Notes: a model not told the origin generated them from the letters alone. A stretch of DNA of 64,000 nt from an uncultured Thermodesulfobacteriota bacterium (GCA_964543765.1 CAZIZI010000001.1:170475-234474), one strand, 5' to 3'. Positions 3,106 to 56,601 are shown, counted from the stretch's first letter. Numbers and translations are program-made.

Positions 3106-3106
3106 G

Positions 3107-4393: not shown

Positions 4394-4395
4394 AT

Positions 4396-7342: not shown

Positions 7343-7344
7343 AA

Positions 7345-34036: not shown

Positions 34037-34158
34037 TAATTCACCTCCTTCAAAATTGCTTCTACAAAATAACATACTATTTCAAGTTTTGCAAGATATA
34101 CCGCTGTTCTCCATAAGATAACTTTTTACGACTGCTTTTTGGGTTATAATGTTTACTT

Positions 34159-35019
34159 ATGAGGAGGGTAGAGGTTATAGGGCTTTTGAGTCTGGGGATT
34201 GGTTTGGTTTTGGCAGTTTTGGCCTTTTTGGAGAAATTGAGGGTAGAGGAAGTGGGTTTTGATGTTTGTAGAAGTGAATCTTGTGAGGTTGTTCAGTATT
34301 CCGGGTTTTCGGACCTTTTTGGTTTTCCCATAACGCTATTTGCGATCTTAGCCTTAGGTGGGGTTATCCTTCTTTGGTTTTTGCGGAGAAAAGAAAAGGC
34401 TCTTTTTATTCTGGCCTTTTTGGTTGGGTGTGAAGCTTATTTGACCTTTATTGAGTTTTATTATTTAGAAGGGAAGTGCCCTCTGTGTATAGCTTTTTTA
34501 AGCAGTTTAGTGATAGGGTTTGTTTTTTCGGTTCTTCAAAGGTTTAGACCATCCCTTTTTTGGTTTATGGCCTTAGGGTTTTTGGGATTGCATTTTCTCT
34601 TCTTCTTTCCGAGATTTGATCTCGCTTATACCCCCTATTTTGACCCCAAGGGAAAGGTTATTGAAGTTTTTCTTTCGCCAAGAGAGTCTCGGATCCTCAA
34701 AGAACTTCAAGGCTTTTTAAGCCAGAGAGGTTTTCAATTGTGTCCGAGGTTTGTCCCTCAAGATCCTTCGTCAAGAAGGGAGGCCCTTTTAGAGATGGCC
34801 AAAATGCTGTTTTCTGAACCGAGTGAAGAAGCTTTGAGGGTCTCAGAAAGGACGTTAAGGAGGAATGAAGAGGAGCTTAAAAATTTTAACGGTTCCCTTC
34901 CCCTGTTGGTAGTGAAGGAAAAGGGAGAAGTGAAAAAGGTGATAAGTGGTCCCAATTGGAGAGAGGAACTTGAGGAATACTTCTCTTTGCCCCCTTTGTT
35001 TTTCTTCAGTTCGCCTTAA
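34159..35019 (+). CDS. VKOR (vitamin K epoxide reductase) family membrane protein with C-terminal soluble extension
   Basis: Loop Cys pair CRSESC and membrane-embedded CxxC (GKCPLCIAF) within 4-5 TM helices as in VKOR homologues. Confidence 0.6.
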   Translation: MRRVEVIGLLSLGIGLVLAVLAFLEKLRVEEVGFDVCRSESCEVVQYSGFSDLFGFPITLFAILALGGVILLWFLRRKEKALFILAFLVGCEAYLTFIEFYYLEGKCPLCIAFLSSLVIGFVFSVLQRFRPSLFWFMALGFLGLHFLFFFPRFDLAYTPYFDPKGKVIEVFLSPRESRILKELQGFLSQRGFQLCPRFVPQDPSSRREALLEMAKMLFSEPSEEALRVSERTLRRNEEELKNFNGSLPLLVVKEKGEVKKVISGPNWREELEEYFSLPPLFFFSSP

Positions 35020-37345: not shown

Positions 37346-37349
37346 CCTT

Positions 37350-39635
37350 CTAAGCCTCCTTCCGTTTTCCTAAAGCCTCAAGAATTACCCACGGAGAAGC
37401 GGGATAGGCATTGATCCATTTGCCTATAGCATTTGATATCGCCATAAGAACCGCTGGTGGACCAGGAGAGGTGGCTATCTCGCCCACTCCAACGGCTCCA
37501 AAGCGATGGCTAGAGAAGGGCGTCTCCAAGATGACGTTTTTAATCTCGGGTAAGTCCAAAAAGGAACGCCATTTATAATCAATGAGATTGGTCGTTAAAA
37601 TTCGCCCTATCTTGGGATCAAGAACCGTTTCCTCGAATATGGCTGTATCTATTCCGGCGGATCCCAAACAACCGTTGAGTTGGTTTTCCAAACACAAGGG
37701 GTCTATTATCTGTCCCGCATCGGTGGCATTGACGACCCTTATAAGGTCGACCTTCCCCGTTTCGGTATCCACCTCCACTTCTACGAAACTTATCATGAAG
37801 TTGCAAAGACTATAATCGGGTTCATAATGCCCGTATCCCCATATGGTGTAAGTTGGGCCCATGGCCCTTCTCCAGGTGATTTGCCTTTTGGGGTCGTCTT
37901 TTACGTAAATTATCCCATCCGAGGTCTCAAGCCTTTCAGGAAGTACACCTAATTTTTTGGAAGCCCGTTCGAATAACTTCCTCTTTGCGTCTTCAGCGGC
38001 CTCTATAACCGCACTTCCTATGGCATAAGTACCTCGGGATCCCACCAGTCCGAATTCATAAGGGTTTGTATCGGAATCAGGTGGAGATAAGAACACGTTT
38101 TCCAAGGGTATCTGAAGGACCTCAGCTACGAATTTACAAAGGTTACTCCTCTGTCCCCCTCCTTGTTCGGGAACTGCCACATAAAGGGTGACCCTATGAT
38201 CGGGGTCTATACGGACAAAGGCTTCGGCATCATCCTCCCCAATATCAGCATTGCTGTGAACCCCGACCCCTACGCCTCTCCTTTTCGGTCCATTTACCAC
38301 GGTTGGTTTAAGCCAGCCCTTCCATTTCTCCTTCCACCCAAAGACTTCGGCTCCTTTGTCGATTGTCTTGGTGAAATCCACCACCCTGGAGATCCACCAA
38401 CGTCCGTCTCTCCAATAATAACCTTGGCCATTCTTGATGACGTTTTTCTTGAAGAACTCAACGGGATCAATGTCAAGTTTCGCCATAGCCATATATAAAA
38501 GGGGCAAAAGCACCGACTTGAGCTCCTGTCCTCCAAACCCTCTTATCCAGCTGGAATTATCCCTATTAGTGCAAATCACCTTGGGTCTCAAATCCCAATT
38601 CTCGCATCTTATGACAAGCTGTACTTCTCCTAAACCTACAGCCACTTGTCCCTGGGTTACTGCTGAATAATACCCGGTATTCACCAGCCAATTACCCGAT
38701 ATGGCCGTGACAGTCCCATCCTTTTTCATACCCACTTTTCCTTTGAGGCGCGTTCCCAAACGGATGGTAAAGCTTGTAAGGTGTTCTTCTTTCGTGTAAC
38801 ACAATTTAACGGGTTGCCCAGCGGCTTTAGCCAACACAATGGCATAAATTGCGATAGGGAGAATAGTCCCTTTTGATCCGTAACTTCCACCGCATTGGCA
38901 GGCATGAACTATCACGTTGTATTTTCTCTGCATTATGTAATAAAGGCTTATTTTGTCCATATAAAACCCTTGAGAAGAAAGCCATACGTGAACCGTCTCT
39001 GGGTCTTCCCAATAGGCTATGGCGCCTGGGGGTTCAGGAGGTAAGGGGTTAGCGATGTTTTCATAATAAAATGTCCCCTCCACCACCACATCCGCTTCTG
39101 AAAAGCCCTTTTCCACATCGCCAAGTCGGAGTTCCTTTAATCCTTCTGGAGCCTCAGGGCTTCCAAACCAGGGGTTCCCTAAGGGTAAGATGTTATTGGG
39201 AAATTCGTCGTAAAGCTGAGGAGCTCCCTCCTTTATGGCCTCTTCTGCGTCAAAAACGGCTGGAAGTATCTCATACTCCACTTCGATTAAGTCCAAAGCC
39301 TCTTGGGCGATTTCTTCCGTTTCAGCGGCTACAAGACTCACCGCATCACCCACAAAGCGTACCTTCTGGTCAAGGACGCGAAGGTGAGGCGGTAAGCCCA
39401 TCTTCCAATCTGGAACGTCCTTATAAGTTAAGACTGCTTTAACACCGGGTAAGCTTTTGGCCTTTTCTACCTTTATCTCCTTTATAATCGCATGGGGATA
39501 AGGGCTTCTTAAAACCTTTCCTATGAGCATATTCGGTAACTTCACATCGTTAATGTAAATGGCCTTCCCCGTGACAATAGATAGGGCGTCCTTCCTCGGG
39601 GTTGGTTGACCTATAAACCTATATTTTTTGGCCAT
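37350..39635 (-). CDS. xanthine-dehydrogenase/aldehyde-oxidase-family molybdopterin-binding large subunit
   Basis: 761 aa, a/b-hammerhead plus MoCo-binding domain architecture typical of CoxL/XdhA/HcrA; sits between the 2Fe-2S and FAD subunits. Confidence 0.8.
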   Translation of the reverse strand: MAKKYRFIGQPTPRKDALSIVTGKAIYINDVKLPNMLIGKVLRSPYPHAIIKEIKVEKAKSLPGVKAVLTYKDVPDWKMGLPPHLRVLDQKVRFVGDAVSLVAAETEEIAQEALDLIEVEYEILPAVFDAEEAIKEGAPQLYDEFPNNILPLGNPWFGSPEAPEGLKELRLGDVEKGFSEADVVVEGTFYYENIANPLPPEPPGAIAYWEDPETVHVWLSSQGFYMDKISLYYIMQRKYNVIVHACQCGGSYGSKGTILPIAIYAIVLAKAAGQPVKLCYTKEEHLTSFTIRLGTRLKGKVGMKKDGTVTAISGNWLVNTGYYSAVTQGQVAVGLGEVQLVIRCENWDLRPKVICTNRDNSSWIRGFGGQELKSVLLPLLYMAMAKLDIDPVEFFKKNVIKNGQGYYWRDGRWWISRVVDFTKTIDKGAEVFGWKEKWKGWLKPTVVNGPKRRGVGVGVHSNADIGEDDAEAFVRIDPDHRVTLYVAVPEQGGGQRSNLCKFVAEVLQIPLENVFLSPPDSDTNPYEFGLVGSRGTYAIGSAVIEAAEDAKRKLFERASKKLGVLPERLETSDGIIYVKDDPKRQITWRRAMGPTYTIWGYGHYEPDYSLCNFMISFVEVEVDTETGKVDLIRVVNATDAGQIIDPLCLENQLNGCLGSAGIDTAIFEETVLDPKIGRILTTNLIDYKWRSFLDLPEIKNVILETPFSSHRFGAVGVGEIATSPGPPAVLMAISNAIGKWINAYPASPWVILEALGKRKEA

Positions 39636-39636
39636 T

Positions 39637-40131
39637 TTAAGTTACCCTCCTTTTTATTACGTCACTTACAGCGTGGAGGACATGATAATGGCTTATACAA
39701 CGACAGAAATGTCCGGAAAGGGCTTCCTTTATCTCTTCCTCCGTTGGTGCTTCCTTTCTATCCAGAAGAGCCTTAAGGCTCATGATTATCCCTGGGGTGC
39801 AAAAACCGCATTGAAAAGCCGTATGGTTTATAAAGCTTTCCTGGAGAGGGTGAAGTTCACCTTTTTCGGGATTACCCAGCCCTTCGATGGTCGTTATGGT
39901 TTTTCCATCGCATTCAATCGTGAGGGTTAAACACGATAAAATCGGTTCTCCATCTATCAATACGGTACAAGCACCACAAGCCCCATGATCGCATCCGACC
40001 TTTGTACCTGTGAGGTTTAGGGTTTCTCTTAACGTGTAAGCCAATGTGTGATGGGGAAATACGTCCTTGTTGAGGAGAAGTTCATAGGACTTTCCATTCA
40101 CATTCAAATTGATGACCTTTCGTTCCTTCAT
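39637..40131 (-). CDS. [2Fe-2S]-binding small subunit of the xanthine-dehydrogenase-family enzyme
   Basis: GCDHGACGACTVLIDG...SC (plant-type ferredoxin cluster) and QCGFCTPG (second cluster) motifs; 164 aa. Confidence 0.9.
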   Translation of the reverse strand: MKERKVINLNVNGKSYELLLNKDVFPHHTLAYTLRETLNLTGTKVGCDHGACGACTVLIDGEPILSCLTLTIECDGKTITTIEGLGNPEKGELHPLQESFINHTAFQCGFCTPGIIMSLKALLDRKEAPTEEEIKEALSGHFCRCISHYHVLHAVSDVIKRRVT

Positions 40132-40224: not shown

Positions 40225-42853
40225 ATGGGGTTGAACGAGGCTGATACAAGGGCTATTCTCGTTGAACACAAGCTCAAAGCTGCTGGTTGGACAGATCAAC
40301 AAGTTAGAAGGGAGTTTTTCTATCACCGTGATCATCAGTATACTCCAGGGCGCATAATATTAGTAGGTGATAGAGTCAAACGAGGAAAACCCCGAAAGGT
40401 GGATTATCTTCTACACCTGACTGATGGTTTTGAGATAGCTGTAATAGAAGCGGAACCCGAGGATAGTCCGGCAGAAGCCGGCTTAGAGCAAGCAAAGACT
40501 TATGCCAAAGATTTAGGATTAGCCTTTGCCTATGCTACAAATGGACACAAGATCTTGGAATATGACTTTTTCACTCATACGACAAGAGAACTTGCGAACT
40601 TTCCTCGTCCCGAGAAGCTTTGGTATCGGTGGAAAATAAACACAGGGTTGAGCTCCTTAGAGTTTACCAAGGAGGAACGTTCAGCCTACCTTTCTAAGTT
40701 AGGAGCGGAACGATACCAAAATCCTCTTCTTTATAGCTATTGTTCGGAAAGCCTTTGTGGGAAAAGACCGTTCTATTTTCAGGAAGTGGCGATTCCTGAG
40801 ATTATAAAGCGTATCATGCGCGGACAACGCCGAATTCTTTTAACCATGGCTAAAGGTACTGGAAAGACATTTGTGGCTTTCCAAGTTGTGTGGAAGCTTA
40901 TAAAATCCGGATGGCTTCAAAGGGGGCATCCTAATAAGCCCACACGTGTTTTATTTTTGGCCGATCGGATTGCCCTTCGTGATCAAGCCTATAACACTTT
41001 TGCACCCTTTGCAGACGGAGTAAACGAACCTCGCTTCAAAATTGAAGGACACCCTCCGAGTTTCACGCGTGACCTTTATTTTGCAATTTATCAGACATTA
41101 TGGAGTCCTAATGAAGAAGGAAAGCGCCTTTTTGAGCTTTACCCACCGGACTTTTTTGACCTGGTGATCATCGATGAATGTCACCGTTCAGGTTGGGGGA
41201 CTTGGCGGGAGATACTCGACCACTTCAAGGATGCCATTCACTTGGGAATGACCGCCACCCCAAAGCAGGATGAAAATATCGATACATACGAATACTTCTG
41301 TCAGGAAGAGCCTGAGGTATTTATTGATCCTGAGCATCCCGAAAAAGGAAAGCGCCTTACTGCTGCTTATGAGTACATCTTGGGGCGAGGCATCGAGGAT
41401 GGATTCCTTGCTACGTATAAGGTGCATCGTGTTCGAACCACGGTGGATAAAGAAGGATTGCGTCTTGAGGATGCCATCGAACAATGAGCTGAGGTTTTCA
41501 TCCCTGAGGATGTAGAACCAAGGGGATATTACACCACTCCTCAATTTGAGCGAGAGATTACCCTTCCAGATCGTACAAAAGCCATGGTCAATCACTTAGC
41601 TAAGCTTTTGCGCAAGTTCGGGTTTTGGGAAAAGACCATGGTTTTCTGGGTGGAAATAGAGCATGCTCGACTCGTGGCTAAATTACTGCAGGATGAATTT
41701 GGTCCGGAAACAGGTTTTGATAACTACGCCGTCCTCATCGTTTCTGAAGAGGGTGCGGAACGCCAGGCGATGGCTTGAAGATTTTGTAAATTCAGAGAAA
41801 GGCGCCATTAGTAGCTACCACGGCGGAGCTTCTCACTACCGGTGTAGATGCTCCGCCTTGTGGAAACATCGTGTTCATGAAGACCTTTTCTTCGCCACTT
41901 CTTTTTAAGCAGATCATAGGCCGGGGAAGTTGCATTGACCCGGCTACAAATAAATACTGGTTTCGCATCATAGATTTTACCAGGGTAACAAAACTTTTCG
42001 ATGAGTGGGATCGTTCCGGGCAAAGAATTATCTAGCGGCCTCAAGGCCCCTTTACTGCTTCTATTTCTGGTCGCGTGTTCCATGCGCAAACGGGTGATCT
42101 CATTGTGGGAGCTCAGGTAAGCGTTCGCACAGGACCCAACACCCAGCAAGGTTCCATTCGTACAGACCAAAATGGCTCTTTATTTTTGAGGAGCTACCAG
42201 CCGAAACCGTTACCCTGATTGTCAGTGTTCCGGGTTTTGTGCGACGTGAATTCAAGGTGGGAACCCTTGCAGATCAAACTGTGGAGATCAATGGTTTCCT
42301 AAAACGTGAGAGCAAAAGAAAATCTAAGATAGAAGTTGAAGGGTTAACCGTAGAAATCGCGGATGAAGCGATTTTTATAATGGAGTCAACTGGGCAACAA
42401 CTCACTTTGGAGCAGTACCGAGATTATACTCCTCGAAAGATCATTCAAGTTGCTCCCACAAGAAAAACTTTGCGCCAGATCTGGATAAACCCAGAAAAGC
42501 GCCAGCATTTCTTAGAAGAGCTTCGTCGGTCTGACATTCATCCTGAGGTTTTTAGGGAAATTCTTAACCAAAATGAGGCGGATACGTATGATCTTTTGCC
42601 CCATCTTGCCTTCGGGGCCCCCATTCGTACAAGAAGCGAACGAACCCTAGCGTTCCGAAATCGCGAGCAAGCATTCTTACAGCGCCACAGCGAGAACGCA
42701 CCTCAAGTCGTCCTCGCGCCTTTGGAAAAATACCGCGTGGGGTTGAGGAATTGCAACCGAAGGTGTTCGGCCTTTCCCCATTCCGGGAGTGGGATGAAGC
42801 TTTTTGCATTCAAAATTGGTTTGGTGGTGCGGAAGGGCTCGCCCGAACCTTGA
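40225..42853 (+). pseudogene. hsdR: type I restriction enzyme R subunit (HsdR), disrupted into >=4 fragments
   Basis: N-terminal MGLNEADTRAILVEHKLKAAGW (HsdR N-domain), DEAD-box IIDECHRS, then stop at 41487; continuation in shifted frames (41584-41908) and EcoEI-R-C-like C-terminal domain ORF 42239-42853. Confidence 0.75.
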
Positions 42854-42926
42854 AGAAATCCAGAAGCGCATTTACCCTGAAGAGGAGGTGGTAGTAAGAT
42901 GAACCGGCCACAGACGAAGGGAAACA

Positions 42927-43907
42927 TTGGCCAATGAAATCTGGAGGGCTTGTAACATCCTTCGCCAAGACAACAACTGCACTGGTATTATGGAATACGT
43001 AAAGCATTTATCCTGGCTTCTCTTTCTTCGTTTTCTGGACGCCCAGGAAGAGGAGTGGGAAACTCAGGCCAAGCTTGAACGCAAAGAGTATCAGCCGATC
43101 ATCGAGCCGCCCTACCGTTGGCGGGATTGGGCTACCAGAGACTGGTCTGCGGAGGAGCTCCTTTCTTTTGTTCATGGCCGCCTTATTCCTTACCTCCAAA
43201 ATCTTGGAGATGATCCCGTTCGCGCGATCATCCGCGGAATTTTCGCTGAAAGAAACGTTATCGTCTGTGCCTCCGGCTACAACCTAAAGGACGTTCTTCA
43301 AATCATCAACGGCATCGATTTCTACTCCCAGGATGACATATTCACCGTATTCCAGGTTTACGAGGAGTTACTTCGTCGCTTAGGCAGTGAAAACTGCCTG
43401 GCCGGAGAATTCTATACTCCAAGACCAGTTGTTCGTTTTATTGTGGAAGTTGTGGACCCCAAAATTGGGGAAACCATCTATGACCCAGCCTGCGGAACCT
43501 GCGGCTTTTTGGCCCAAGCTTATTTACACATGCGCAAATACGAGCAAACCATTGAGGATCACAGGATTCTTCAGGAGCAAACATTTTATGGCCAGGAAAA
43601 GAAACTCATTCCAGTCCTTCTTGGTCTCATGAATATGGTCCTTCACAGCGTGACTATACCCCGCATCGCCCGCCGAAATACCTTGGGAGAAAACATCCGC
43701 CATGTTACCGAACATTATGATGTGATTATGACAAATCCCACTTTCGGCGGGACAGAAGGTATACATATTCAGCATCATTTCCCCATCCGGTCTCAGGCTA
43801 CGGAGCTTCTTTTTCTACAGCACATCATGGAAAAGCTAAAACCCAGAGACGGTGCCCGCTGCGGTATGGTCGTGCCCGAAGGAACCCTTCCATTGTGGAG
43901 GAGCTGA
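42927..43907 (+). pseudogene. hsdM: type I R-M DNA methyltransferase subunit (HsdM), truncated (~326 aa of ~500)
   Basis: HsdM N-domain ANEIWRACNILRQD...HLSWLLFLRFLD, AdoMet motif DPACGTCGFL, catalytic NPTFGG (NPPF-type); ends prematurely after MVVPEGTL; upstream start region also out of frame. Confidence 0.65.
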
Positions 43908-43934
43908 ATGAACTCCTCAGCTCCAATGAGAAGG

Positions 43935-44261
43935 AAAAAAACAATGGATGACATTCGGAGCTTAGCAGAGAAAATACGAACGGACCTAAAGGAACGCTAT
44001 GACTCAAAAGTTCTACAGATCATCCTTTATGGCTCGTAAGCGCGCGGTGAGGCCACTTCTGAATCCGACATGGACCTTTTAGTGGTGGTAGACGATTCTT
44101 TGGATCCATGGGAAGTCCGTCGGAATCTGGACGATTTGCTTTTGGACATACTTCTTAGGGATGGCCGTTTGGTTTCCGTTTTAGTGGTGCCAAAAAGCTT
44201 CTATGAAAGCTACCACTCGCCCTTTTTGAAGCAAGTCCACAAGGAGGGAATTCCCCTGTGA
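43935..44261 (+). pseudogene. MNT-type nucleotidyltransferase (antitoxin of HEPN/MNT pair) with in-frame TAA
   Basis: ILYGS*ARGEATSESDMDLLVVVD: the GSxARGx9SDxD NTase motif is interrupted by TAA exactly where a conserved Tyr (TAY) is expected. Confidence 0.7.
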
Positions 44262-44266
44262 AGTAA

Positions 44267-44619
44267 GTGCAAGATTTTGTCGCCAAAGCTGGGCGTTTTC
44301 TCAAAAGTGCGGAACACCTTTTGGCCCTCGGTGACTACGATTCCTGTGCCTCGAGATGTGATTACGCCATGTTTTTATGGCTGAGACAGCCTTAATGGTA
44401 AAGGAGGTTAGCGCATCCTCTCACCGGGGTGTCATAAGCCTTTTTGGTCAGCACTTTATCCGCACGGGAATTTTCTCGGCAGAATTAGGGCGTGCGTTAA
44501 GTCGGGCTTACGATGTGCGCCTTACAGGTGATTATGCGGTTGGTTTAAGCGTGAGCCGTGAGAAGGCGGAAAACCTTCTGGAAGCTGCCCGGCGGTTTGT
44601 CGCCGAAGTGCGGGCCTAG
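44267..44619 (+). pseudogene. HEPN domain protein (toxin partner), frameshifted
   Basis: N-terminal frame AKAGRFLKSAEHLLALGDYDSCASRCDYAMF and C-terminal frame ...SHRGVISLFGQHFIRTGIFSAELGRAL...RLTGDY together form a HEPN domain; frames switch in a ttttta run near 44375. Confidence 0.6.
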
Positions 44620-44642
44620 CTGGAAAGGGAGGCGGAGAACCG

Positions 44643-45703
44643 ATGACCAAGGGACCCTACAAACTTCCTGAAGGCTGGCGGTGGGTGCGGTTGGGGGAGG
44701 TGTGCAATGTTGAGCACCGAACAATAATTTCTCGTTTACAGCCTCCCTGCCTATGATAAAAACCGGTCCCCTGAGCTACTTAAAAGGGGCTGAGACAGGT
44801 AGTTCAAAGTTAGTCATCAAACCTGGGGTTTGCTTATTTTCAAAACTTAATCCAAGGATTCCCCATGCATGGGCTGTAAAAGGAAATCCGTCCGTTCTCA
44901 ATATACCGTTACTTGCCTCCACCGAGTTCATGTCGTTGCGGCTACATTTCCAAAAGCTCAATTTGGACTATCTACGTCCACTTTTGTTATCCGATATTTT
45001 CCTTAACCAAATTCGTACAAACGTTACAGGATGATCAACTGATAGCAGGCAAAAACTAAGACCCGATAGAGTGCTTGATGCTCTTGTTCCCTCCCATCCC
45101 TTGAAGAATAAAAACGCATTGTGGCGCGGATTGAGGAGCTGATGAGAAGAGTGCTGGAGGCGCGGCGCTTAAGGAAAGAAACAACAAAAAAGAAGCCGAC
45201 CACCTCTGGCAAGCCGTCCTCGCCCAAATCTTCCCCCGCCCCGGCTCGAAACTTCCAGAAGGCTGGTGTTGGGTATGGTTGGGAGAAGTTTTTTCGGTTA
45301 AAAAATGGCAAATTCATCCCGGCAAGTGATCTTGCATCCCAAGGCAAAATTCCTGTTTATGGGTCTAATGGATTACTGGGCTTCACAATTGTACACTTGT
45401 TCACGGAAGGAAAGACAATAGTGATGGGCGTGTGGGCGCTTGTGGTGCAATCAATGTAGTTGATGCACCATTTTGGATATCCGATAACGCCATGTTTGGT
45501 GCTAAATGGCTCACTGAGTGTGAGATAGAGTACATTGCCCTGGTGTTGCGCAGTATAGATTTATCCTCATTTGCTAAAAAGGGACACGACCTTCCATTTC
45601 GTAAGAGATGGTTTACAACGCTCTCGTCCCCCTTCCACCCCTTGAAGAGCAGTGCCGGATTGTGGCACACCTTTACGAGGTGCAGAAAAAAACAAGGCCT
45701 TAA
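44643..45703 (+). pseudogene. hsdS: type I R-M specificity subunit (HsdS), multiple frameshifts/stops
   Basis: MTKGPYKLPEGWRWVRLGEVCNV (HsdS start), TRD-like LFSKLNPRIPHAWAV...LNLDYLRPLLLSDIFLNQIR, central RIEELMRRVLEARRLRKE, second LPEGWCWVWLGEV, C-terminal VPLPPLEEQCRIVAHLYEV, all in different frames. Confidence 0.7.
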
Positions 45704-45749
45704 AAGAAGCCCAAGCCCAAACGGAAGCAGAACTTAAAAGAGCTCTCCG

Positions 45750-46385
45750 AGTTTAAAAGGCTAAGTGAAAAGCTCATGGAACGGGGACCAGAGGCCCTCT
45801 CGGAGGCTGAGCTTTTGGTCATTTTCCTCCGCACAGGGGTGGAAGGAAAAGCGCCCTGGACTTGGCTCACTCCATTTTGGAGAAGGCCAGGCCTGAGCTT
45901 CCTCGCTGGTCCGTAAAGGAACTCGCCCAAATTCCCAGTGTAGGTGTGGCCAAAGCTTGCGAAATCGTGGCTGCCTTTGAGCTTGCCCGCTCTCTTATTC
46001 AAGGAAAACGCCCAGCCATTAACCAAAAGATGTTTTCCCTTTAGCGCAAGATCTTTTGGATAGGAAACAAGAGTATCTCTTCATCCTCTTTCTTATGGGT
46101 GCTAACGAAGTTATCGCAAAGAAGGTCATAAACTGTAGGCTTCCTGGATTCCGCACAAGTGCATCCACGGGAGATATTTGCTGAGGCTATTGCAGATCGG
46201 GCTGCGGCTATTATCCTTGTTCACAACCACCCATCAGGTAAACTTGAACCAAACCCCCAAGACCTTTTCGTTACTCGTCGTTTAGTTGAGGCCGAAAAGC
46301 TTTTTGGAATAGACGGTTTGGCCGTGTGATCGTCGCCAAAACCGGTTGGTTTTCCTTCGTTAAGGAAGAACTTCTCGGGTTAGGA
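45750..46385 (+). pseudogene. radC: RadC-like JAB-domain protein, frameshifted
   Basis: [18 protein letters not shown] / [13 protein letters not shown]...[29 protein letters not shown] and later VHPREIFAEAIADRAAAIILVHNHPSGKLEPNPQDLFVTRRL (JAMM motif HNHPSG) lie in three different frames. Confidence 0.65.
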
Positions 46386-46387
46386 GT

Positions 46388-47542
46388 TTATCCATCTTTT
46401 AGTGATTCCCAAATGACCTTCGTGATATAGGTGACCTTTTTGCCCATCTGGCCAATTTTATTCGTGTAGTTCAGGTTAAAAGTGCAGAAGGGACAAGGGC
46501 TTATTAACTCTTCGGTTTCCGTTTGCTTTAGTAAGGTACTAGCAATATCAAAAGAAAGGTTTTTGAAAGCTGATCTTATCCCTCCGCCCGATCCACAACA
46601 TAATGTTTCTTCCCGTGAACGGGAAAGTTCATAAACATCGATCCCACACAACTTTAACAGCTCTCACGGTTCCTTGGTGTATCTTTCGCCTCGGCCTAAA
46701 CGGCAACTGTCATGATAAGTGACTTTTCTTTCCACTTTTCTTAAAAGGGAAGGGTCCTTCTTTAATTCCTTGTAAATGACCTGAAGCACATGAAAGACTT
46801 CAAAATCGACTGACCCCAAAACTTCCCGATAAAAATACTTGAAACACTTCAACAACCGTTACAAGCCACAATAAGCCTTGTTATACCGAGTTTCTTAAAA
46901 CGATCTGCGTTTTCTCGGAAAAGCCTTTCAGCTATCTGGACTTCGCCGGCTTCATATATATAAGTGCCACAGCATCCTTCATCCTCAAGGATCATGAAAT
47001 CTATCCCCAGTTTTTTAAGCACAAGATAGGAATATACAGCCGCATCTTTAACCAGATAAGAGGGCAAGCACCCCACAAAAAACAAAGTCCGAGACCTTCG
47101 AGGCTCAAAGGGCTCAGGAACCCATCGCAGTCTTTCCGAGGGATCTCCGTTTACGCTGTTTCCCTTTTCTAATATGCCTTGAATAATCTTTTTATGAACG
47201 GGAAGAGGTCCTTTTCCATTTTTCACAATCTTGTTCCTAATGAGAGCAACGATTTTGCTTACTTCAATGTCCTGAGGACAAACCACTTTCACAAGCCGCA
47301 CATTTGGGACAGTTATAAAAAGTGGTGACCATTTCTTCCGTGATTTCACCGCTTTTCATGAGGTTTTTAACGCTTTTTAAACGCCCTTTGGGGGAGAAAA
47401 AGGGATTTTTTGTGGCTATGTAAGTTGGGCAGACCTCCAAACAAGCATCGCAATCATTACATCTTTCAATTCGACTTAGAATCCAATTGTCCTGCATTGT
47501 ATTGTTTAAAGTTATATAACCTAATTCTTTTAGAAGTTGCAA
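46388..47542 (-). pseudogene. HdrD/GlpC/LutA-like FeS oxidoreductase (2x[4Fe-4S] + two CCG domains), split into 4 ORFs
   Basis: Fragment 1: CNDCDACLEVCP + CPKCAAC; fragment 2: first CCG domain (GCCG...ACNGC); fragment 3: YHDSCRLGR; in-frame TGA; fragment 4: second CCG domain (CCGSGGG...CPFC). The TGA sits where homologues have PRELLK (Arg CGA to TGA). Confidence 0.65.
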
Positions 47543-52201: not shown

Positions 52202-53617
52202 ATGCCCAAGGAACCCATCAGGGAATCGGCCATAGCGGGCACCTGGTATCCTGGTGACCCGCGGGTTTTAAGGCAATGGGTTGAGGAATTTTTAAAAAAA
52301 GCCACCGTTCCCCCCTTAGAAGGAAGTATAATCGGGATCATCGCTCCCCATGCGGGTTATATGTACTCGGGACAAGTGGCGGGTTATGCCTATCGCGTCT
52401 TACAAGGAAGGAAGTTCTCCAGGGTGGTGGTAGTTGCCCCGAGTCATTACGCTTACTTTAACGGGGTTTCGATTTATCCGAAAGGCAGTTTCCGGACTCC
52501 CTTGGGGCTTGTTGAGGTGGATGAGGAGATGTGCGAAAGGTTCCTTAAGGCCTCTCCCATAATAAGGGATCTTCCCCAAGCCCATGTGAGGGAACATTCC
52601 CTTGAGATTCAGTTGCCCTTTCTGCAGGTGGTTTTGGGGGATTTCAAGCTCATACCCTTAGTTGTAGGCGAACAGGATGAACTCACCATAAAGGAACTTG
52701 CCCGTGTTCTTTCAGAAGTTATAAGGCTTCGAAGGGATGAGGTGCTTCTTGTGGGAAGTACGGATCTTTCCCACTTTTATCCCTATAATCGGGCTCGAGA
52801 ACTTGATGGGATCATCATAGATTACGTACGCAGTTTTGACCCTGAGGGGCTTTTAAGAGAACTTCGAAGCGGAAGATGTGAAGCCTGTGGTGGAGGGCCT
52901 ATGGTCTCGGTTATGATGGCCTCAAAGGAACTGGGGGCCAATAGGTCTTTGGTACTAAAGTACGCCAACTCGGGGGATGTGACCGGGGATAAAACGAGCG
53001 TTGTGGGTTACCTGGCGGCTGTTTTTTATGAGGAGGGAGGGGACCCTTTGGAAAAGGAGTACCTTAACCTAAATGAAGAAGAAAAACGGACACTCCGTGA
53101 GATAGCCAAGGAGACCATATGGAGAAGGGTTTTGGGTAAACCACTCCCCGCTTTTTCTATTAAATCCCCTAAGCTTCAAGTTCCTCGGGGGGTCTTTGTG
53201 ACGATAAAAAAACACGGTCAACTTCGGGGATGCATAGGCTATGTTCGTCCGGTAAAGCCCCTTTGGGAAGCGGTAATTGACATGGCTCAAGCCGCAGCCT
53301 TTGAGGATCCTCGGTTCCCACCTGTAAGAAAAGAAGAGCTTGAGGACCTTGAGATAGAGATTTCGGTTTTAACTCCCTTAAAGCAGATAAAGGGCAGCCC
53401 TGAGGAGATCCTTAAGAGCATAAAAATAGGAAGACATGGCATCATGATCGAAAAGCCCCTTTACTATTCGGGTTTGCTTTTGCCTCAAGTGGCTACCGAA
53501 TACGGTTGGGATGCCGAAACCTTCTTGGAGGAAACTTGTCTTAAAGCAGGCCTGCCTCCCCGGGCTTGGAGAGATCAAGATTTGAGGATCTATATCTTCG
53601 GGGCGGAGGTCTTTTAA
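52202..53617 (+). CDS. fusion of Memo-like (AmmeMemoRadiSam system protein B) and AMMECR1 (protein A) domains
   Basis: N-terminal AIAGTWYPGDP...IIAPHAGYMYSGQVAGYAY (Memo); C-terminal RGVFVTIKKHGQLRGCIGYVRPVKPLWEAVIDMAQAAAFEDPRFPPV (AMMECR1 signature). Confidence 0.8.
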   Translation: MPKEPIRESAIAGTWYPGDPRVLRQWVEEFLKKATVPPLEGSIIGIIAPHAGYMYSGQVAGYAYRVLQGRKFSRVVVVAPSHYAYFNGVSIYPKGSFRTPLGLVEVDEEMCERFLKASPIIRDLPQAHVREHSLEIQLPFLQVVLGDFKLIPLVVGEQDELTIKELARVLSEVIRLRRDEVLLVGSTDLSHFYPYNRARELDGIIIDYVRSFDPEGLLRELRSGRCEACGGGPMVSVMMASKELGANRSLVLKYANSGDVTGDKTSVVGYLAAVFYEEGGDPLEKEYLNLNEEEKRTLREIAKETIWRRVLGKPLPAFSIKSPKLQVPRGVFVTIKKHGQLRGCIGYVRPVKPLWEAVIDMAQAAAFEDPRFPPVRKEELEDLEIEISVLTPLKQIKGSPEEILKSIKIGRHGIMIEKPLYYSGLLLPQVATEYGWDAETFLEETCLKAGLPPRAWRDQDLRIYIFGAEVF

Positions 53618-54639
53618 TGCTCAAAAGGGTAAAGGCCGAAGAAGCCGTGGGGATGATCTTGGGGTACGATGTGACCCAAGTTATTCCCGGGCTAAAAAAA
53701 GGACCCGTTTTTAAGAAGGGGCATAGGATAAGGGAAGAAGATATAAAGGTCTTTTTGGACACCGGAAACGAGTATATTTGGGTTATAGACCTCAAGGAAG
53801 GAGAGCTTCATGAGGATGAGGCAGCCATGGAGTTGGCCAAATCCATAAGCGGGGAGAACTTAAGGTTTGAAAGCGGAGGAGAGGGAAGGGTTTTGATTAA
53901 GGCCGAACGAGATGGCCTTTTGAAGGTCGAAAGGGACCTTTTGGAAGAGCTGAACCTCAAAGGGGATTTTGTCCTTTCCACTTTGAAAAACAACACTCCC
54001 TGTAAAGAAGGGGATCTGATTGGAGTGGCCAAGGTAATTCCCCTTATAATCCAGGAAGAGGAGCTTAAATGGGTAAAGGAGCGGTTTTCAGAAAGGAGAG
54101 TGATATACCTTAAACCCTATAAGGAAAGAAAGGTAGGAGTTATTGTCACAGGGGATGAGGTTTATTTTGGAAGGATCAAGGACGGGTTTGATCAGCAGGT
54201 GTTACCGAAGCTCAAAGAATACGGCGTTACGGTCTTTAAAAAGCTCGTTTTACCGGATGACCCTCAGAAGATCGCTCAAGCTATAAGGGAACTCGTACAA
54301 GAAGGTTGTGATCTTTTGATCTTAACAGGTGGACTTTCTGTTGATCCGGGAGATGTTACTCGTGAAGGCGTTAAGTTAGCAGGTGCTTCTATTCTAAATT
54401 ATGGAGCTCCAGTTATTCCCGGGACCAATTTCTTATACGCCCTTCTGGATAAGGTGGATATCCTGGGACTTCCGGCTTGTGTTTATTACAATCGAAGGAC
54501 TGTTTTTGATGTAGTATTGCCTCGGATATTGGCTTCGGAAAGGCTTTCCCGGGAGGAGATAAGACGTCTTGGATATGGAGGACTTTGTTTAGGATGTGAA
54601 AGTTGTCATTTTCCCCGTTGTCACTTTGGGATGCCCTAA
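53617..54639 (+). CDS. MoeA/MogA-like molybdopterin-binding (MoCF_biosynth) domain protein with Cys-rich C-terminus
   Basis: N-terminal EAVGMILGYDVTQVIPG resembles MoeA N-domain; central GVIVTGDEV...CDLLILTGGLSVDPGDVTREG is the MogA/MoaB/MoeA cofactor-binding fold; tail CLGCESCHFPRCHF. Confidence 0.55.
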   Translation: MLKRVKAEEAVGMILGYDVTQVIPGLKKGPVFKKGHRIREEDIKVFLDTGNEYIWVIDLKEGELHEDEAAMELAKSISGENLRFESGGEGRVLIKAERDGLLKVERDLLEELNLKGDFVLSTLKNNTPCKEGDLIGVAKVIPLIIQEEELKWVKERFSERRVIYLKPYKERKVGVIVTGDEVYFGRIKDGFDQQVLPKLKEYGVTVFKKLVLPDDPQKIAQAIRELVQEGCDLLILTGGLSVDPGDVTREGVKLAGASILNYGAPVIPGTNFLYALLDKVDILGLPACVYYNRRTVFDVVLPRILASERLSREEIRRLGYGGLCLGCESCHFPRCHFGMP

Positions 54640-55433
54640 TGCCTTTGAGGCTTAAGGTCGTAATAAAAGGAGCGGGTGAGCTCGGAAGTGCTGTCGGTTG
54701 GACCTTGAGAAGGTGTGGCTTTTATGTCCTCTTTACCGAGATCCCTCAACCTCTGGCGGTAAGAAGGAGAGTCTGTTTTAGCGAGGCTGTTTACGAGGGC
54801 GAGCAGGTGGTAGAAGGGGTAAAAGGGGTTTTGATTAAGGATCTTCAAGAGGTGGAGGATGTTTGGAAAAGGGGTGAGGTGGCCGTTATAGTGGACCCTG
54901 AGGGAAATTCGGTTTCTCTCATTAAGCCTGATGTTTTGGTGGATGCCATTATGGCTAAAAGGAACACCGGTACTTCTATGGATCAAGCTACTTTTACCAT
55001 AGGGCTTGGACCGGGGTTTTACGCGGGAAGGGATGTTCATGTGGTTATCGAGACCCAAAGGGGACATAACCTTGGAAGGGTCATTTATGAGGGGGAGGCC
55101 GAACCTAATACCGGTATTCCTGGAGAGATAAGAGGTTTCACCTGGCAAAGGGTATTAAGGGCTCCGAAGGAGGGGCTTTTTAAGCCATTAAAGGATATAG
55201 GAGATTCGGTGAAAAAGGGAGAAACGGTCGCCTTAGTGGATTCGGAACCTGTAACGGCTGCAATAGAGGGGGTTATAAGGGGACTTTTAAGAGAAGGTAT
55301 AAGGGTTCCAAAGGGTGAGAAGGTAGGGGACATTGATCCAAGGGGGATAAGGGATTATTGCTTCACTATTTCGGATAAGGCAAGAAGCGTAGCCGGAGGA
55401 GTCCTAAGAGCTATTCTTGAACGTTTCAATTGA
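54639..55433 (+). CDS. XdhC/CoxI-type Rossmann protein, YqeB/EF2563-like (selenium-dependent molybdenum hydroxylase maturation family)
   Basis: VVIKGAGELGSAVGWTLRRCGFYVLFTEIPQPLAVRRRVCFSEAVYEG matches my recollection of the YqeB-family core (VIRGGGDLASGVA-RL-RAGF-VVITE--QPLAVRR-V-F-EAVY); TAATG overlap with upstream gene. Confidence 0.55.
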   Translation: MPLRLKVVIKGAGELGSAVGWTLRRCGFYVLFTEIPQPLAVRRRVCFSEAVYEGEQVVEGVKGVLIKDLQEVEDVWKRGEVAVIVDPEGNSVSLIKPDVLVDAIMAKRNTGTSMDQATFTIGLGPGFYAGRDVHVVIETQRGHNLGRVIYEGEAEPNTGIPGEIRGFTWQRVLRAPKEGLFKPLKDIGDSVKKGETVALVDSEPVTAAIEGVIRGLLREGIRVPKGEKVGDIDPRGIRDYCFTISDKARSVAGGVLRAILERFN

Positions 55434-56176
55434 TGGTAGAAAAGCTTATAGAGGTACTTGGTTTAAAAAAAGGAGAAGTTATAAGTTTAGTCGGGGGAGG
55501 AGGAAAAACCACCTTAATGTTTCGCTTAGCTCAAGGCCTTACCAAAAAGGGATTCAAGGTAATAAGCACAACCACAACCAAGATAAAGGAACCCTCAAAT
55601 GAAGAGGTTCCCCTTTTACTTCTGGGAGAAGAAGAAAGGCTTTTATCGGCATTAAAAGCCCATCAGGATATTCCCCATATTACTTTAGCCCGAGAAAAAA
55701 CCAAAGAAGGAAAGCTAAAGGGGCTTTCGCCCGAATTCATCGGGGAGCTTTCCCGATGGGCCGATTTAGTCCTAGTTGAGGCCGATGGCTCTAAGGGAAG
55801 GCCCATTAAGGTTCATGGGCCAAATGAACCCGTTGTTCCAGAATGTACAACTTTATTTATAGCCCTTTTGGGAGCGGATGGTTTAGGTAAGCCCTTTTTG
55901 GAACAGTGGGTTTTTAGATTTGAAGAGGCCTTAAAGTTTTTTGACCTTAAGCCAGGCGATTTGATAGGGCCTGAGGTGCTAAGAAGGCTTGTTCTTTATG
56001 AGGAAGGCTTGATGAAGGGAAAACCCGAAGGAGTGAGAAGTTTAGTCTTCATTAACAAAGTGGAAGGAGAGGAACGGTTGGAATTAGCCCTTAGTTTGGC
56101 CTGTGAGCTCAAAAAGGAGGGAATTCGGGTCCTTTTGGGGAGTTTACTGGAAGGAAGCCTTATGGAGGGATTTTGA
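55430..56176 (+). CDS. yqeC: putative selenium-dependent hydroxylase accessory protein YqeC family
   Basis: ISLVGGGGKTTLMFRLAQGL...VISTTTTKI matches the YqeC P-loop pattern (VGAGGKTTL-F-LA...TTTTKM); 248 aa; ATGA overlap. Confidence 0.6.
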   Translation: MMVEKLIEVLGLKKGEVISLVGGGGKTTLMFRLAQGLTKKGFKVISTTTTKIKEPSNEEVPLLLLGEEERLLSALKAHQDIPHITLAREKTKEGKLKGLSPEFIGELSRWADLVLVEADGSKGRPIKVHGPNEPVVPECTTLFIALLGADGLGKPFLEQWVFRFEEALKFFDLKPGDLIGPEVLRRLVLYEEGLMKGKPEGVRSLVFINKVEGEERLELALSLACELKKEGIRVLLGSLLEGSLMEGF

Positions 56177-56601
56177 TGGATAAGGTTTTCTTATATGCGC
56201 TTTTAACGGCCATGTTATGGGGATTTGCCCCATTGTTTGGAAAAGTGGGTCTTAAAATGATGGATCCGCTTTTGGCTTTGGCTATAAGAACTTTTTTCGT
56301 ATTTTTAACAGTAAACTTTTTGATAATCTTTACTGGAAAAATAAAGGAGCTTTTTGCGCTTTTACCTTCACGAGGGGCCTTTTACGTGAGTTGTGAGGCC
56401 ATTTTTGGAGCCATTTTGGGGCAGCTCTTTTATTTTTATGCTTTAAAAGAAGGAGAGGCTTCAAGGGTTGTTCCCATTGCTTCCGCTTTTCCGCTTTTTA
56501 CAGCCTTATTTGCCTTTTTGTTTCTTGGGGAAAAATTTCAGTGGCAAAAGGTTTTGGGAGCCATTTTGATAGTGGGTGGAATGACTCTTTTGAGGAGGTA
56601 G
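56173..56601 (+). CDS. small EamA/DMT-family membrane transporter (4-TM half-size)
   Basis: 142 aa, four hydrophobic helices, [12 protein letters not shown] pattern of the EamA domain. Confidence 0.55.

What the first reader, a model, noticed from the sequence alone, without database searches (positions are those of the whole stretch)
53617..56176. Selenium-dependent molybdenum hydroxylase maturation genes (YqeB-like, YqeC) plus a MoeA/MogA-like protein
The YqeB/EF2563-family Rossmann protein and the P-loop protein YqeC are genomic markers of the labile-selenium cofactor system used by some xanthine-dehydrogenase-family enzymes, such as nicotinate dehydrogenase and purine hydroxylase. They are chained by 1- and 4-nt overlaps to a molybdopterin-binding MoeA/MogA-like protein with a Cys-rich tail. 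The only XDH-family enzyme in the window, the unusual GltD-fused one at 35-40 kb, is the obvious client. No selD is present in the window. My assignment of these two families rests on remembered signature motifs.
Basis: partly seen in the sequence, partly recalled or inferred. Interest (0 to 1): 0.65.

Follow-up and report, generated by a model that had tools for sequence, protein, structure and literature searches.

The report
Selenium-cofactor maturation genes plus MoeA-like partner
Three tightly chained genes are genuine YqeB and YqeC (the known marker pair for bacteria that put labile selenium into molybdenum enzymes) preceded by an uncharacterised MoeA-like molybdenum-cofactor protein. 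This is a correct call of a known but mechanistically unsolved system, not a new kind of system.

Summary
Window 53617-56176 (+) carries three genes joined by 1-nt TAATG/TGATG overlaps.

- **MoCF340:** a 340-aa MoeA-like protein with a PF00994 domain and a CxxCxxCx4C tail.
- **YqeB:** TIGR03309, 367 bits against a cutoff of 220.
- **YqeC:** TIGR03172, 191 bits against a cutoff of 73.

No selD, xdhC, mocA/mobA or canonical moeA lies in the window.

The MoeA-like protein belongs to a widespread, unnamed family of about 1,000 clusters at 50% identity. In 71 of 80 species loci it sits within 10 kb of a Mo-cofactor gene: mobA-like 39, xdhC 29, moeA 29, moaA 29, yqeB 23. Some members are fused to FmdE, MobB or MoaC. 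It is therefore a general Mo/W-cofactor accessory, not a selenium-specific one.

The proposed client is the XDH-family enzyme at 35-40 kb, whose FAD subunit carries an Nfn/GltD-like insert. This link is plausible but not shown.
- In two relatives the enzyme lies only 6.3 kb from the trio. The window's extra 7.4 kb is a decayed restriction-modification island.
- One unrelated metagenomic lineage has this enzyme type directly followed by yqeB-yqeC-xdhC-mobA.
- Only 2 of 80 loci of this enzyme type have yqeB nearby.

Whether the genome has selD could not be tested.

Verdict: a new member of a known kind, of moderate interest.

The parts
53617..54639 (+). MoeA-like Mo-cofactor-binding protein ('MoCF340', 340 aa). 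It has a MoeA-like N-terminal region, a MoCF_biosynth domain and a C-terminal CxxCxxCx4C tail, and lacks MoeA domain IV.
   Evidence: PF00994 at 71 bits. AF2 model pLDDT 91; best Foldseek PDB matches are gephyrin E, Cnx1E and MoeA. hhalign to E. coli MoeA domain III gives 96.8% probability. Invariant C288, C324, C327, C330 and C335. A 100%-identical protein is called with this ATG start in four assemblies.
54639..55433 (+). YqeB (EF2563-type short form, 264 aa): a Rossmann-like N-terminal domain plus a beta barrel-sandwich (biotinyl-like) C-terminal domain.
   Evidence: TIGR03309 at 366.7 bits, cutoff 220. 46% identity to E. coli YqeB residues 271-524. AF2 model pLDDT 93.6. No solved homologue by sequence or fold. 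Weak Biotin_lipoyl hit at aa 178-229, E = 0.063.
55433..56176 (+). YqeC (247 aa), a P-loop NTPase with GGGGKT and EADGSKG motifs.
   Evidence: TIGR03172 at 191.2 bits, cutoff 73.05; PF19842 at 150 bits. 32% identity to E. coli YqeC. Only weak P-loop similarity to MobB, CbiA and FtsY.
56176..56601 (+). Single-domain EamA (DMT-family) membrane protein, translationally coupled to yqeC. It is present in some relatives and absent in others, so it is probably not a core part.
   Evidence: PF00892 at 92 bits. TGATG overlap with yqeC. Present in L179, absent in L094.
52202..53617 (+). Memo-AMMECR1 fusion protein, translationally coupled upstream of the MoeA-like gene. No functional link was shown.
   Evidence: TIGR04336 and TIGR04335; PF01875 and PF01871. 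TAATG overlap. Also upstream of MoCF340 in L011, L031, L081 and L179.
39637..40131 (-). XDH-family [2Fe-2S] small subunit of the candidate client enzyme.
   Evidence: PF01799 and PF00111.
37350..39635 (-). XDH-family molybdopterin subunit (761 aa) of the candidate client enzyme. The catalytic-Glu motif GVGE is present.
   Evidence: PF01315, PF02738 and PF20256. It falls below the cutoff of every NCBIfam equivalog; best is XdhA at 373 bits against 780. The closest solved structure is 4-hydroxybenzoyl-CoA reductase alpha, 1rm6, at 224 bits.
35006..37345 (-). XDH-family FAD subunit (779 aa) interrupted by a GltD/NfnB-like module (two [4Fe-4S] clusters, FAD and NAD(P)H sites) at about aa 160-620.
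   Evidence: PF00941 is split at aa 3-118 and about 615-775, with PF14691 and PF07992 in between. The insert matches NfnA 9n5u at 370 bits. The architecture recurs in more than 100 clusters.
40225..47542 (.). Decayed island that separates the XDH operon from the operon holding the trio. It contains type I R-M fragments, MNT/HEPN, RadC fragments and a frameshifted CCG/Fe-S gene.
   Evidence: Fragmentary ORFs. Independent assemblies show the same fragments. The island is absent in relatives L094 and L179, where the XDH FeS gene lies 150-260 nt from the radical-SAM gene.

Best explanation
The three genes form a molybdenum-cofactor maturation module for xanthine-dehydrogenase-family enzymes.

**Shown.**
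- Genes two and three are bona fide YqeB and YqeC, the pair whose co-occurrence is the accepted genomic signature of the 'selenium-cofactor trait'.
- Gene one is a member of a widespread, unnamed MoeA-like family. The family keeps the MPT/nucleotide-binding motifs of MoeA domain III, lacks domain IV, and usually ends in a Cys4 motif.
- That family is embedded in Mo-cofactor loci across phyla.

**Inferred.**
- The MoeA-like protein holds or hands over Mo-MPT or its cytosine dinucleotide.
- YqeB (Rossmann plus barrel-sandwich domains) and the P-loop NTPase YqeC use a SelD-derived selenium donor to place a terminal selenido ligand on Mo, in place of the sulfido ligand. The cofactor is then inserted into the apo-enzyme.
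- The most likely recipient is the neighbouring three-subunit XDH-family enzyme at 35-40 kb, whose FAD subunit carries an Nfn/GltD-like NAD(P)H/[4Fe-4S] module.

The genes appear to be transcribed within a long housekeeping-type operon (EF-G paralogue, Dtd, Memo/AMMECR1 ... ExoIII, M18 peptidase). This suggests constitutive rather than substrate-induced expression.
For: - **Family membership.** Both proteins score above curated cutoffs. They are 46% and 32% identical to E. coli YqeB and YqeC.
- **Literature on the families.** TIGR03309 was found only in selD-positive genomes, and together with TIGR03172 it tracks molybdenum-hydroxylase loci (PMC2276186). YqeB+YqeC co-occurrence is the trait's signature (PMC5029168). 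yqeB and selD are required for xanthine and urate use in C. difficile (PMC11448449). XDH and 2,8-dioxopurine dehydrogenase need SelD (bioRxiv 10.1101/2025.04.24.650524).
- **The MoeA-like protein.** Structure and profile matches to MoeA. In 80 species loci, 71 have a Mo-cofactor gene within 10 kb and 23 have yqeB. Where yqeB is present it is always on the same strand, and in 12 loci it starts within 160 nt downstream. The recurrent order mobA-like / MoCF340 / yqeB / (yqeC) / xdhC is seen in Thermodesulfobacteriota, Syntrophorhabdia and Dehalococcoidia. Family members are fused to FmdE, MobB or MoaC.
- **The client.** This is the only XDH-family enzyme in the window. In relatives at 88% and 61% identity it lies 6.3 kb from the trio with no island between. 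Locus L131 has the same XDH type immediately followed by yqeB-yqeC-xdhC-mobA, and L126 has mobA, xdhC and yqeB about 8 kb away.
Against: - selD, selA/B, tRNA-Sec, xdhC and mocA are not in the 64-kb window. Selenium use by this organism is therefore unverified.
- Only 2 of 80 loci of the Nfn-inserted XDH type have yqeB within 10 kb, 1 has yqeC and none has MoCF340.
- A relative with 69%-identical YqeB keeps the trio while the XDH is absent from this position.
- The XDH-trio synteny in close relatives sits inside a generally syntenic housekeeping block, so it may reflect descent rather than function.
- The Mo subunit is closest to 4-hydroxybenzoyl-CoA reductase, which is not known to need selenium. 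It scores far below the Se-dependent XDH model TIGR03311, at 201 bits against 830.
- YqeC deletion gave no phenotype in C. difficile (PMC11448449).
- No biochemical function is known for YqeB, YqeC or the MoeA-like family. The chalcogen-transfer steps are inference.
Confidence: 0.55

Rival explanations
1. The module is real, but its client is not the neighbouring enzyme. It matures one or more other XDH-family enzymes encoded elsewhere in the genome, or all of them, and the proximity to the 35-40 kb enzyme is inherited gene order.
For: - In C. difficile, yqeB lies far from any XDH cluster (PMC11448449).
- Only 2 of 80 loci of this XDH type have yqeB nearby.
- The relative in L001-L004 keeps the trio without the XDH at this site.
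- The trio sits in a housekeeping operon that is syntenic across relatives.
Against: - L131 shows a direct operon of this XDH type with yqeB-yqeC-xdhC-mobA.
- Linkage is kept down to about 56-66% protein identity.
- No other XDH-family gene lies in the 64-kb window.
Confidence: 0.3
2. In this organism YqeB and YqeC act without selenium, for example in sulfuration or insertion of the ordinary sulfido Mo-cofactor in place of the missing XdhC. The genome may lack selD.
For: - Neither selD nor xdhC is in the window.
- Peng et al. note that YqeB or YqeC homologues occur without a complete trait and may have selenium-independent roles (PMC5029168).
- E. coli YqeB is fused to an XdhC-like domain, and 15 of 22-23 yqeB loci also carry xdhC. 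This points to a chaperone-type job.
Against: - Both markers are present together, which is the accepted signature (PMC5029168).
- TIGR03309 members were found only in selD-positive genomes (PMC2276186).
- Both proteins score as equivalogs, well above cutoff.
Confidence: 0.12
3. The MoeA-like gene is not a functional partner of YqeB and YqeC at all. It is a general Mo/W-cofactor biosynthesis protein, for instance acting with MobA-type nucleotidyl transferases, that merely shares the operon.
For: - 57 of 80 loci of the family have no yqeB.
- It neighbours mobA-like genes (39 of 80), canonical moeA (29) and moaA (29).
- Fusions are to FmdE, MobB and MoaC, not to YqeB or YqeC.
- None of the 80 Nfn-XDH loci has it.
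Against: - When yqeB is present it is always on the same strand as the MoeA-like gene, and most often directly downstream of it.
- There is a 1-nt translational overlap here.
- 44 of 80 loci carry XDH-specific genes (xdhC, yqeB, yqeC or XDH subunits).
Confidence: 0.35

Closest known systems
YqeB/YqeC selenium-cofactor trait of selenium-dependent molybdenum hydroxylases (E. coli b2875/b2876, E. faecalis EF2563/EF2564, C. difficile CD3478/CD2071)
   Same: Both marker proteins are present, adjacent, and above curated cutoffs. An XDH-family enzyme is nearby. YqeB is the short EF2563-type form.
   Different: - The host appears to be an uncultured organism whose closest named relatives are Thermodesulfobacteriota MAGs, not a gut purine degrader.
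- No purine-catabolic genes (ygeW/X/Y, ssnA, hyuA), selD, mocA or xdhC are nearby.
- The genes sit in a housekeeping operon.
- The nearby enzyme is 4-hydroxybenzoyl-CoA-reductase-like and carries an Nfn-type insert.
MoeA / gephyrin E / Cnx1E molybdenum insertase
   Same: The predicted fold matches over about 330-380 alignment columns. The domain III motifs TGxE, PDD and GGxSxxxxD are conserved.
   Different: - No PF03453 (MoeA_N) or PF03454 (MoeA_C) hit.
- Domain IV is replaced by a Cys4 tail.
- The residues aligned to MoeA K275 and K279 are not lysines.
- Canonical MoeA is encoded next to it in 29 of 80 loci, so it is an additional paralogue.
- The NCBIfam MoeA score is 28 bits against a cutoff of 440.
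XdhC (Rhodobacter capsulatus), the Moco-binding chaperone that mediates sulfuration and insertion into XDH
   Same: It has the same logical role: preparing the terminal chalcogen ligand and inserting Moco. xdhC genes neighbour the MoeA-like gene (29 of 80 loci) and yqeB. E. coli YqeB carries an XdhC-like N-terminal half.
   Different: No XdhC homologue is in the window. Neither the window's short YqeB nor the MoeA-like protein matches the XdhC profile.
4-hydroxybenzoyl-CoA reductase (Thauera aromatica HcrCAB, PDB 1rm6)
   Same: It is the closest solved relative of the candidate client's Mo subunit. Its FAD subunit also carries an extra Fe-S insertion for low-potential electron input.
   Different: Identity is only about 30%. 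The score is far below the TIGR03194 cutoff (344 bits against 995). The insert here is a roughly 450-aa Nfn/GltD module rather than a [4Fe-4S] loop. The substrate is unknown.

Membership tests
YqeB (NCBIfam TIGR03309, equivalog) | Full-length match to the family HMM above the curated cutoff | tested here: met
   366.7 bits against 220; model positions 1-255 of 256; E = 6e-110
YqeB (NCBIfam TIGR03309, equivalog) | [quoted passage not shown] | not testable with these tools
   selD is absent from the 64-kb window.
YqeC (NCBIfam TIGR03172 / Pfam PF19842) | Match above curated cutoffs, with a P-loop | tested here: met
   191.2 bits against 73.05; PF19842 at 150 bits against 27.6; GGGGKT motif; 32% identity to E. 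coli YqeC
Selenium-cofactor trait (SelD + YqeB + YqeC + XDH-family enzyme) | [quoted passage not shown] | tested here: met
   Adjacent genes with a 1-nt overlap
Selenium-cofactor trait (SelD + YqeB + YqeC + XDH-family enzyme) | SelD present in the genome | not testable with these tools
   Not in the window. Only 2 of 80 MoCF340 loci in other species have selD within 10 kb.
Selenium-cofactor trait (SelD + YqeB + YqeC + XDH-family enzyme) | An XDH-family molybdenum hydroxylase is encoded | tested here: met
   Three-subunit enzyme at 35006-40131
Selenium-cofactor trait (SelD + YqeB + YqeC + XDH-family enzyme) | Labile, cyanolysable selenium in the enzyme, and selenium-dependent activity | not testable with these tools
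   Requires biochemistry
MoeA molybdopterin molybdotransferase (PF03453 + PF00994 + PF03454; NF007960) | MoCF_biosynth domain (domain III) with nucleotide/MPT-binding motifs | tested here: met
   PF00994 at 71 bits; hhalign to E. coli MoeA residues 170-316 at 96.8% probability
MoeA molybdopterin molybdotransferase (PF03453 + PF00994 + PF03454; NF007960) | MoeA_N (domains I/II) and MoeA_C (domain IV) present; score above the equivalog cutoff | tested here: not met
   No PF03453 or PF03454 hit, even at E <= 10 for aa 1-170. NF007960 scores 28.1 bits against 440. The protein is 340 aa, against about 405 for MoeA. Fold similarity alone extends into the N-terminal part.
MogA/MoaB (TIGR00177 domain) | Score above the cutoff; single-domain protein of about 160-190 aa | tested here: not met
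   58.9 bits against 85.35. The protein has an extra 170-aa N-terminal region.
Selenium-dependent XDH (TIGR03311) or 4-hydroxybenzoyl-CoA reductase alpha (TIGR03194), for the candidate client | Score above the equivalog cutoff | tested here: not met
   TIGR03311 at 200.8 bits against 830; TIGR03194 at 344 bits against 994.6; XdhA NF043082 at 373 bits against 780

The most novel reading that the evidence does not exclude
The Nfn-module-bearing, 4-hydroxybenzoyl-CoA-reductase-like enzyme at 35-40 kb is a new class of selenium-dependent molybdenum enzyme outside purine and nicotinate metabolism, possibly an NAD(P)H/ferredoxin-coupled (de)hydroxylase. The MoeA-like Cys4 protein is the missing platform on which YqeB and YqeC exchange the terminal sulfur or oxygen ligand of the Mo-cofactor for selenium.
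Probability: 0.12. Interest if true: 0.75.

Novelty: new member of a known kind. Interest (0 to 1): 0.4.

Why it matters
How labile selenium is placed on the molybdenum cofactor is the least understood route of biological selenium use. YqeB and YqeC have no solved structure and no known chemistry.

This locus adds three things:
1. An example of the marker pair outside gut purine degraders, in an uncultured lineage whose closest named relatives are Thermodesulfobacteriota MAGs.
2. A recurrent third partner: a MoeA-like, Cys4-tailed family that is tightly linked to mobA, xdhC and yqeB in many anaerobes and could be tested as a cofactor-handling component.
3. A candidate client of an uncharacterised, widespread enzyme architecture, in which an XDH-family FAD subunit is interrupted by an Nfn/GltD module.

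None of this changes the known picture. It supplies testable candidates.

Tried and rejected
- **Exact look-ups that failed or gave too little.** A look-up of YqeB failed because I first used a start codon 3 nt too early. Look-ups of P0001 and of the first window protein returned nothing. The PGI look-up reached only short contigs. As a result I could not walk along the 175-258 kb parent contigs to look for selD.
- **selD in the genome.** I judged a collection-wide SelD search uninformative, because hits could not be tied to this organism, and did not run it.
- **A catalytic cysteine in YqeB.** C241 is invariant among 30 close homologues but is not Cys in E. coli YqeB. I dropped the idea of a universal persulfide/perselenide carrier residue.
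- **Solved structures.** Sequence searches of the PDB gave only noise for YqeB and YqeC. Foldseek gave only domain-level matches for YqeB, with TM <= 0.29.
- **Operon boundaries.** Promoter and terminator scans were at background level and were not used for operon calls.
- **Selenoprotein reading of the split gene.** The split CCG/Fe-S gene at 46.4-47.5 kb is not interrupted by an in-frame TGA. The pieces lie in different frames, so it is a frameshifted gene.
- **Literature on the MoeA-like family.** A search found no description of it. The 'molybdopterin cofactor biosynthesis protein' next to C. difficile yqeC (PMC11448449) may be a member, but I could not check this.

Full report
**Observation.**

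The interval 53617-56176 holds three + strand genes.
- A 340-aa gene at 53617-54639.
- A 264-aa gene at 54639-55433.
- A 247-aa gene at 55433-56176.

The junctions read TAATG, TAATG and TGATG, so each start codon overlaps the previous stop by one base. The same coupling links the upstream Memo/AMMECR1 fusion gene (52202-53617) and the downstream single-domain EamA gene (56176-56601).

Proteins identical or nearly identical to these are called in several independent assemblies, so the genes are not assembly artefacts.

**Identity of YqeB and YqeC.**

Gene two matches NCBIfam TIGR03309 (YqeB) end to end with 366.7 bits against a curated cutoff of 220. Gene three matches TIGR03172 (YqeC) with 191.2 bits against 73.05, and Pfam PF19842 with 150 bits. 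They are 46% and 32% identical to E. coli YqeB (residues 271-524) and YqeC.

Neither has a solved relative by sequence. An AlphaFold model of YqeB (pLDDT 93.6) shows a Rossmann-like N-terminal domain and a beta-rich C-terminal domain. Foldseek matches to the model are domain-level only. They include the C-terminal domains of aspartoacylase-type proteins, biotin carboxyl carrier proteins, and Rossmann-type dehydrogenases. A weak Biotin_lipoyl hit at aa 178-229 agrees with the AccB similarity noted by Johnstone and Self (PMC11448449).

YqeC has a GGGGKT P-loop and only marginal similarity to MobB-type NTPases.

**The first gene.**

It carries one Pfam domain, MoCF_biosynth, at aa 174-304. It falls below the cutoffs of all NCBIfam models, with MoeA at 28 bits against 440.

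- *Conservation.* An alignment of 30 homologues at 46-88% identity shows a conserved 170-aa N-terminal region and an invariant TGGLSVDP(D/G)DVT motif. Cys288 is also invariant, as is the C-terminal C324-x2-C327-x2-C330-x4-C335 motif.
- *Structure.* The AlphaFold model (pLDDT 91) finds gephyrin E, Cnx1E and MoeA as best PDB matches over about 330-380 alignment columns, with E down to 5e-11. Global TM is low (about 0.35), which suggests a different domain arrangement.
- *Profile comparison.* hhalign places it on E. coli MoeA domain III at 96.8% probability. The TGxE, PDD and GGxSxxxxD motifs are kept. The residues aligned to the MoeA KPGKP lysines are not lysines.

It is therefore a MoeA-like paralogue that lacks domain IV, not a MoeA or a MogA.

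**What that family does, judged from context.**

A scan of one genome per GTDB species returned 80 loci at 41-61% identity. They come from Thermodesulfobacteriota, Clostridia, Fusobacterium, Dehalococcoidia, Phycisphaerae and others.

Iterated profile searches of their ORFs show that 71 of 80 have at least one Mo-cofactor gene within 10 kb:

| Neighbour within 10 kb | Loci (of 80) |
|---|---|
| mobA/mocA-like | 39 |
| xdhC | 29 |
| canonical moeA | 29 |
| moaA | 29 |
| yqeB | 23 |
| XDH Mo subunit | 15 |
| yqeC | 11 |
| selD | 2 |

- In C. perfringens the order is moeA / mobA-like / this gene / moaA / MOSC.
- In Thermodesulfobacteriota, Syntrophorhabdia and Dehalococcoidia the order is mobA-like / this gene / yqeB / (yqeC) / xdhC.
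- yqeB is always on the same strand as this gene where present. In 12 loci it starts within 160 nt downstream.

An exhaustive profile search of 1.84 billion representatives found 1,017 clusters at E <= 1e-30. Some lack the Cys tail. Some are fused to FmdE (with its zinc finger), MobB or MoaC.

The family is therefore a general Mo/W-cofactor accessory, additional to canonical MoeA. It has a marked but not exclusive association with XDH-specific maturation genes, which occur in 44 of 80 loci.

**The candidate client.**

The only XDH-family enzyme in the window is encoded on the - strand: FeS subunit 39637-40131, Mo subunit 37350-39635, FAD subunit 35006-37345.

- *Mo subunit.* It is below every equivalog cutoff. 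It is closest to 4-hydroxybenzoyl-CoA reductase alpha among solved structures (224 bits), and it has the GVGE catalytic-Glu motif.
- *FAD subunit.* It is split by a roughly 450-aa GltD/NfnB-like module, whose best match is NfnA 9n5u at 370 bits. This architecture is common in databases, at about 780-800 aa, in Desulfobacterota/Thermodesulfobacteriota, Bathyarchaeia and gut metagenomes.

*Evidence for a link to the trio.*
- In relatives whose MoeA-like protein is 88% identical (L094) and 61% identical (L179), the XDH operon lies divergently about 6.3 kb upstream of the MoeA-like gene. The genes between are a radical-SAM gene, a small ORF, an EF-G paralogue, Dtd and Memo/AMMECR1.
- The additional 7.4 kb in the window (40.2-47.5 kb) is a decayed type I R-M / HEPN / RadC island plus a frameshifted CCG gene. 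It appears with the same fragmentation in independent assemblies.
- In an unrelated metagenomic contig (L131) the same XDH type is followed directly by yqeB, yqeC, xdhC and a mobA-like gene. In L126, mobA-like, xdhC and yqeB lie about 8 kb away.

*Evidence against a link.*
- Among 80 loci of this XDH type, only 2 have yqeB within 10 kb, 1 has yqeC and none has the MoeA-like gene.
- A relative with 69%-identical YqeB keeps the trio while ProRS abuts the EF-G paralogue, so there is no XDH at this site.
- The conserved synteny lies within a generally syntenic housekeeping block.

I rate the client assignment as plausible, not established.

**Selenium.**

No selD, selenocysteine tRNA, xdhC, mocA/mobA, canonical moeA or moaA is present in the window. 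I could not reach the remainder of the parent contigs.

The link to selenium therefore rests on published work on these families:
- TIGR03309 is restricted to selD-positive genomes (PMC2276186).
- YqeB+YqeC co-occurrence is the trait signature, with the caveat that single homologues may have selenium-independent roles (PMC5029168).
- yqeB and selD, but not yqeC, are needed for xanthine and urate use in C. difficile (PMC11448449).
- Clostridial XDH and 2,8-dioxopurine dehydrogenase are SelD-dependent (bioRxiv 10.1101/2025.04.24.650524).

The same sources state that the mechanism of selenium insertion is unknown.

**Mechanism proposed, and how far it is supported.**

*Shown:* family identities, domain content, gene coupling, and context statistics.

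*Inferred:*
- The MoeA-like protein binds Mo-MPT or its dinucleotide.
- YqeB and YqeC, using a SelD-derived donor, install a terminal selenido ligand.
- The cofactor is delivered to the neighbouring XDH-family enzyme.

*Main rivals:*
- The client lies elsewhere in the genome.
- YqeB and YqeC play a selenium-independent, chaperone-like role in an organism that lacks XdhC nearby.
- The MoeA-like protein is merely a co-located general biosynthesis factor.

**Novelty and score.**

YqeB and YqeC are annotated equivalogs of a described, though mechanistically open, system. The locus is a new member of a known kind.

The modest new points are:
- The recurrent MoeA-like partner family.
- The occurrence in an uncultured lineage whose closest named relatives are Thermodesulfobacteriota MAGs (record titles).
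- The candidate client of an uncharacterised Nfn-inserted XDH architecture.

Interest is 0.4.

Noticed in passing
window 40225-47542: A decayed island holding hsdR in at least two pieces, a truncated hsdM, an MNT/HEPN pair, hsdS-like and RadC fragments, and a CCG / 2x[4Fe-4S] gene broken by frameshifts. Independent assemblies show the same fragments. Two relatives (L094, L179) lack the island.
   Followed up: partly
window 35006-37345 (with 37350-40131): The XDH-family FAD subunit is interrupted by an Nfn/GltD-like module. The architecture is widespread (more than 100 clusters of about 780-800 aa, including Bathyarchaeia and human-gut metagenomes). 71 of 80 metagenome loci have the Mo subunit gene beside it, mostly in the order FeS-Mo-FAD(Nfn). 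Its substrate and electron partners are unknown, and it may couple NAD(P)H with low-potential electron transfer.
   Followed up: partly
L001-L004 10764-12140; L179 11788-13152: In relatives, YqeC is fused to an N-terminal SAM-dependent methyltransferase domain (454-458 aa). The window's YqeC (247 aa) lacks it. Any link to selenium methylation is pure speculation.
   Followed up: no
proteins P0452, P0455, P0468, P0487, P0492, P0396, P0425 (FmdE or its zinc finger); P0390 (MobB); P0423 (MoaC): Members of the MoeA-like family occur as fusions with FmdE (usually with its treble-clef zinc finger), with MobB, or with MoaC. This ties the family to Mo/W-cofactor handling in general.
   Followed up: partly
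window 165-8343: A cluster of a UPF0261 protein, three UbiD-like (de)carboxylase genes, a UbiX-like flavoprotein, a CTP-dependent riboflavin kinase-HAD fusion and an FMN-dependent dehydrogenase. It resembles prenyl-FMN-dependent aromatic (de)carboxylation clusters. This may fit with the 4-hydroxybenzoyl-CoA-reductase-like enzyme at 35-40 kb.
   Followed up: no
window 52202-53617 and 47571-49028: A Memo-AMMECR1 fusion (AmmeMemoRadiSam system proteins B and A) is translationally coupled to the MoeA-like gene. A radical-SAM/SPASM gene lies upstream in the same direction. It did not match the AmmeMemoRadiSam radical-SAM model among the best 25 of 60 NCBIfam hits listed. Memo/AMMECR1 also lies upstream of the MoeA-like gene in L011, L031, L081 and L179.
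   Followed up: no
window 26374-28203: An unusual fusion of an HMGL-like (pyruvate carboxyltransferase-type) domain with a C-terminal dCache/PDC sensor domain.
   Followed up: no
window 31988-35019: A DMSO-reductase-family molybdopterin oxidoreductase (FdhA-like, with no in-frame stop codon) lies next to a VKOR-family membrane protein whose gene overlaps the 3' end of the XDH FAD-subunit gene.
   Followed up: no
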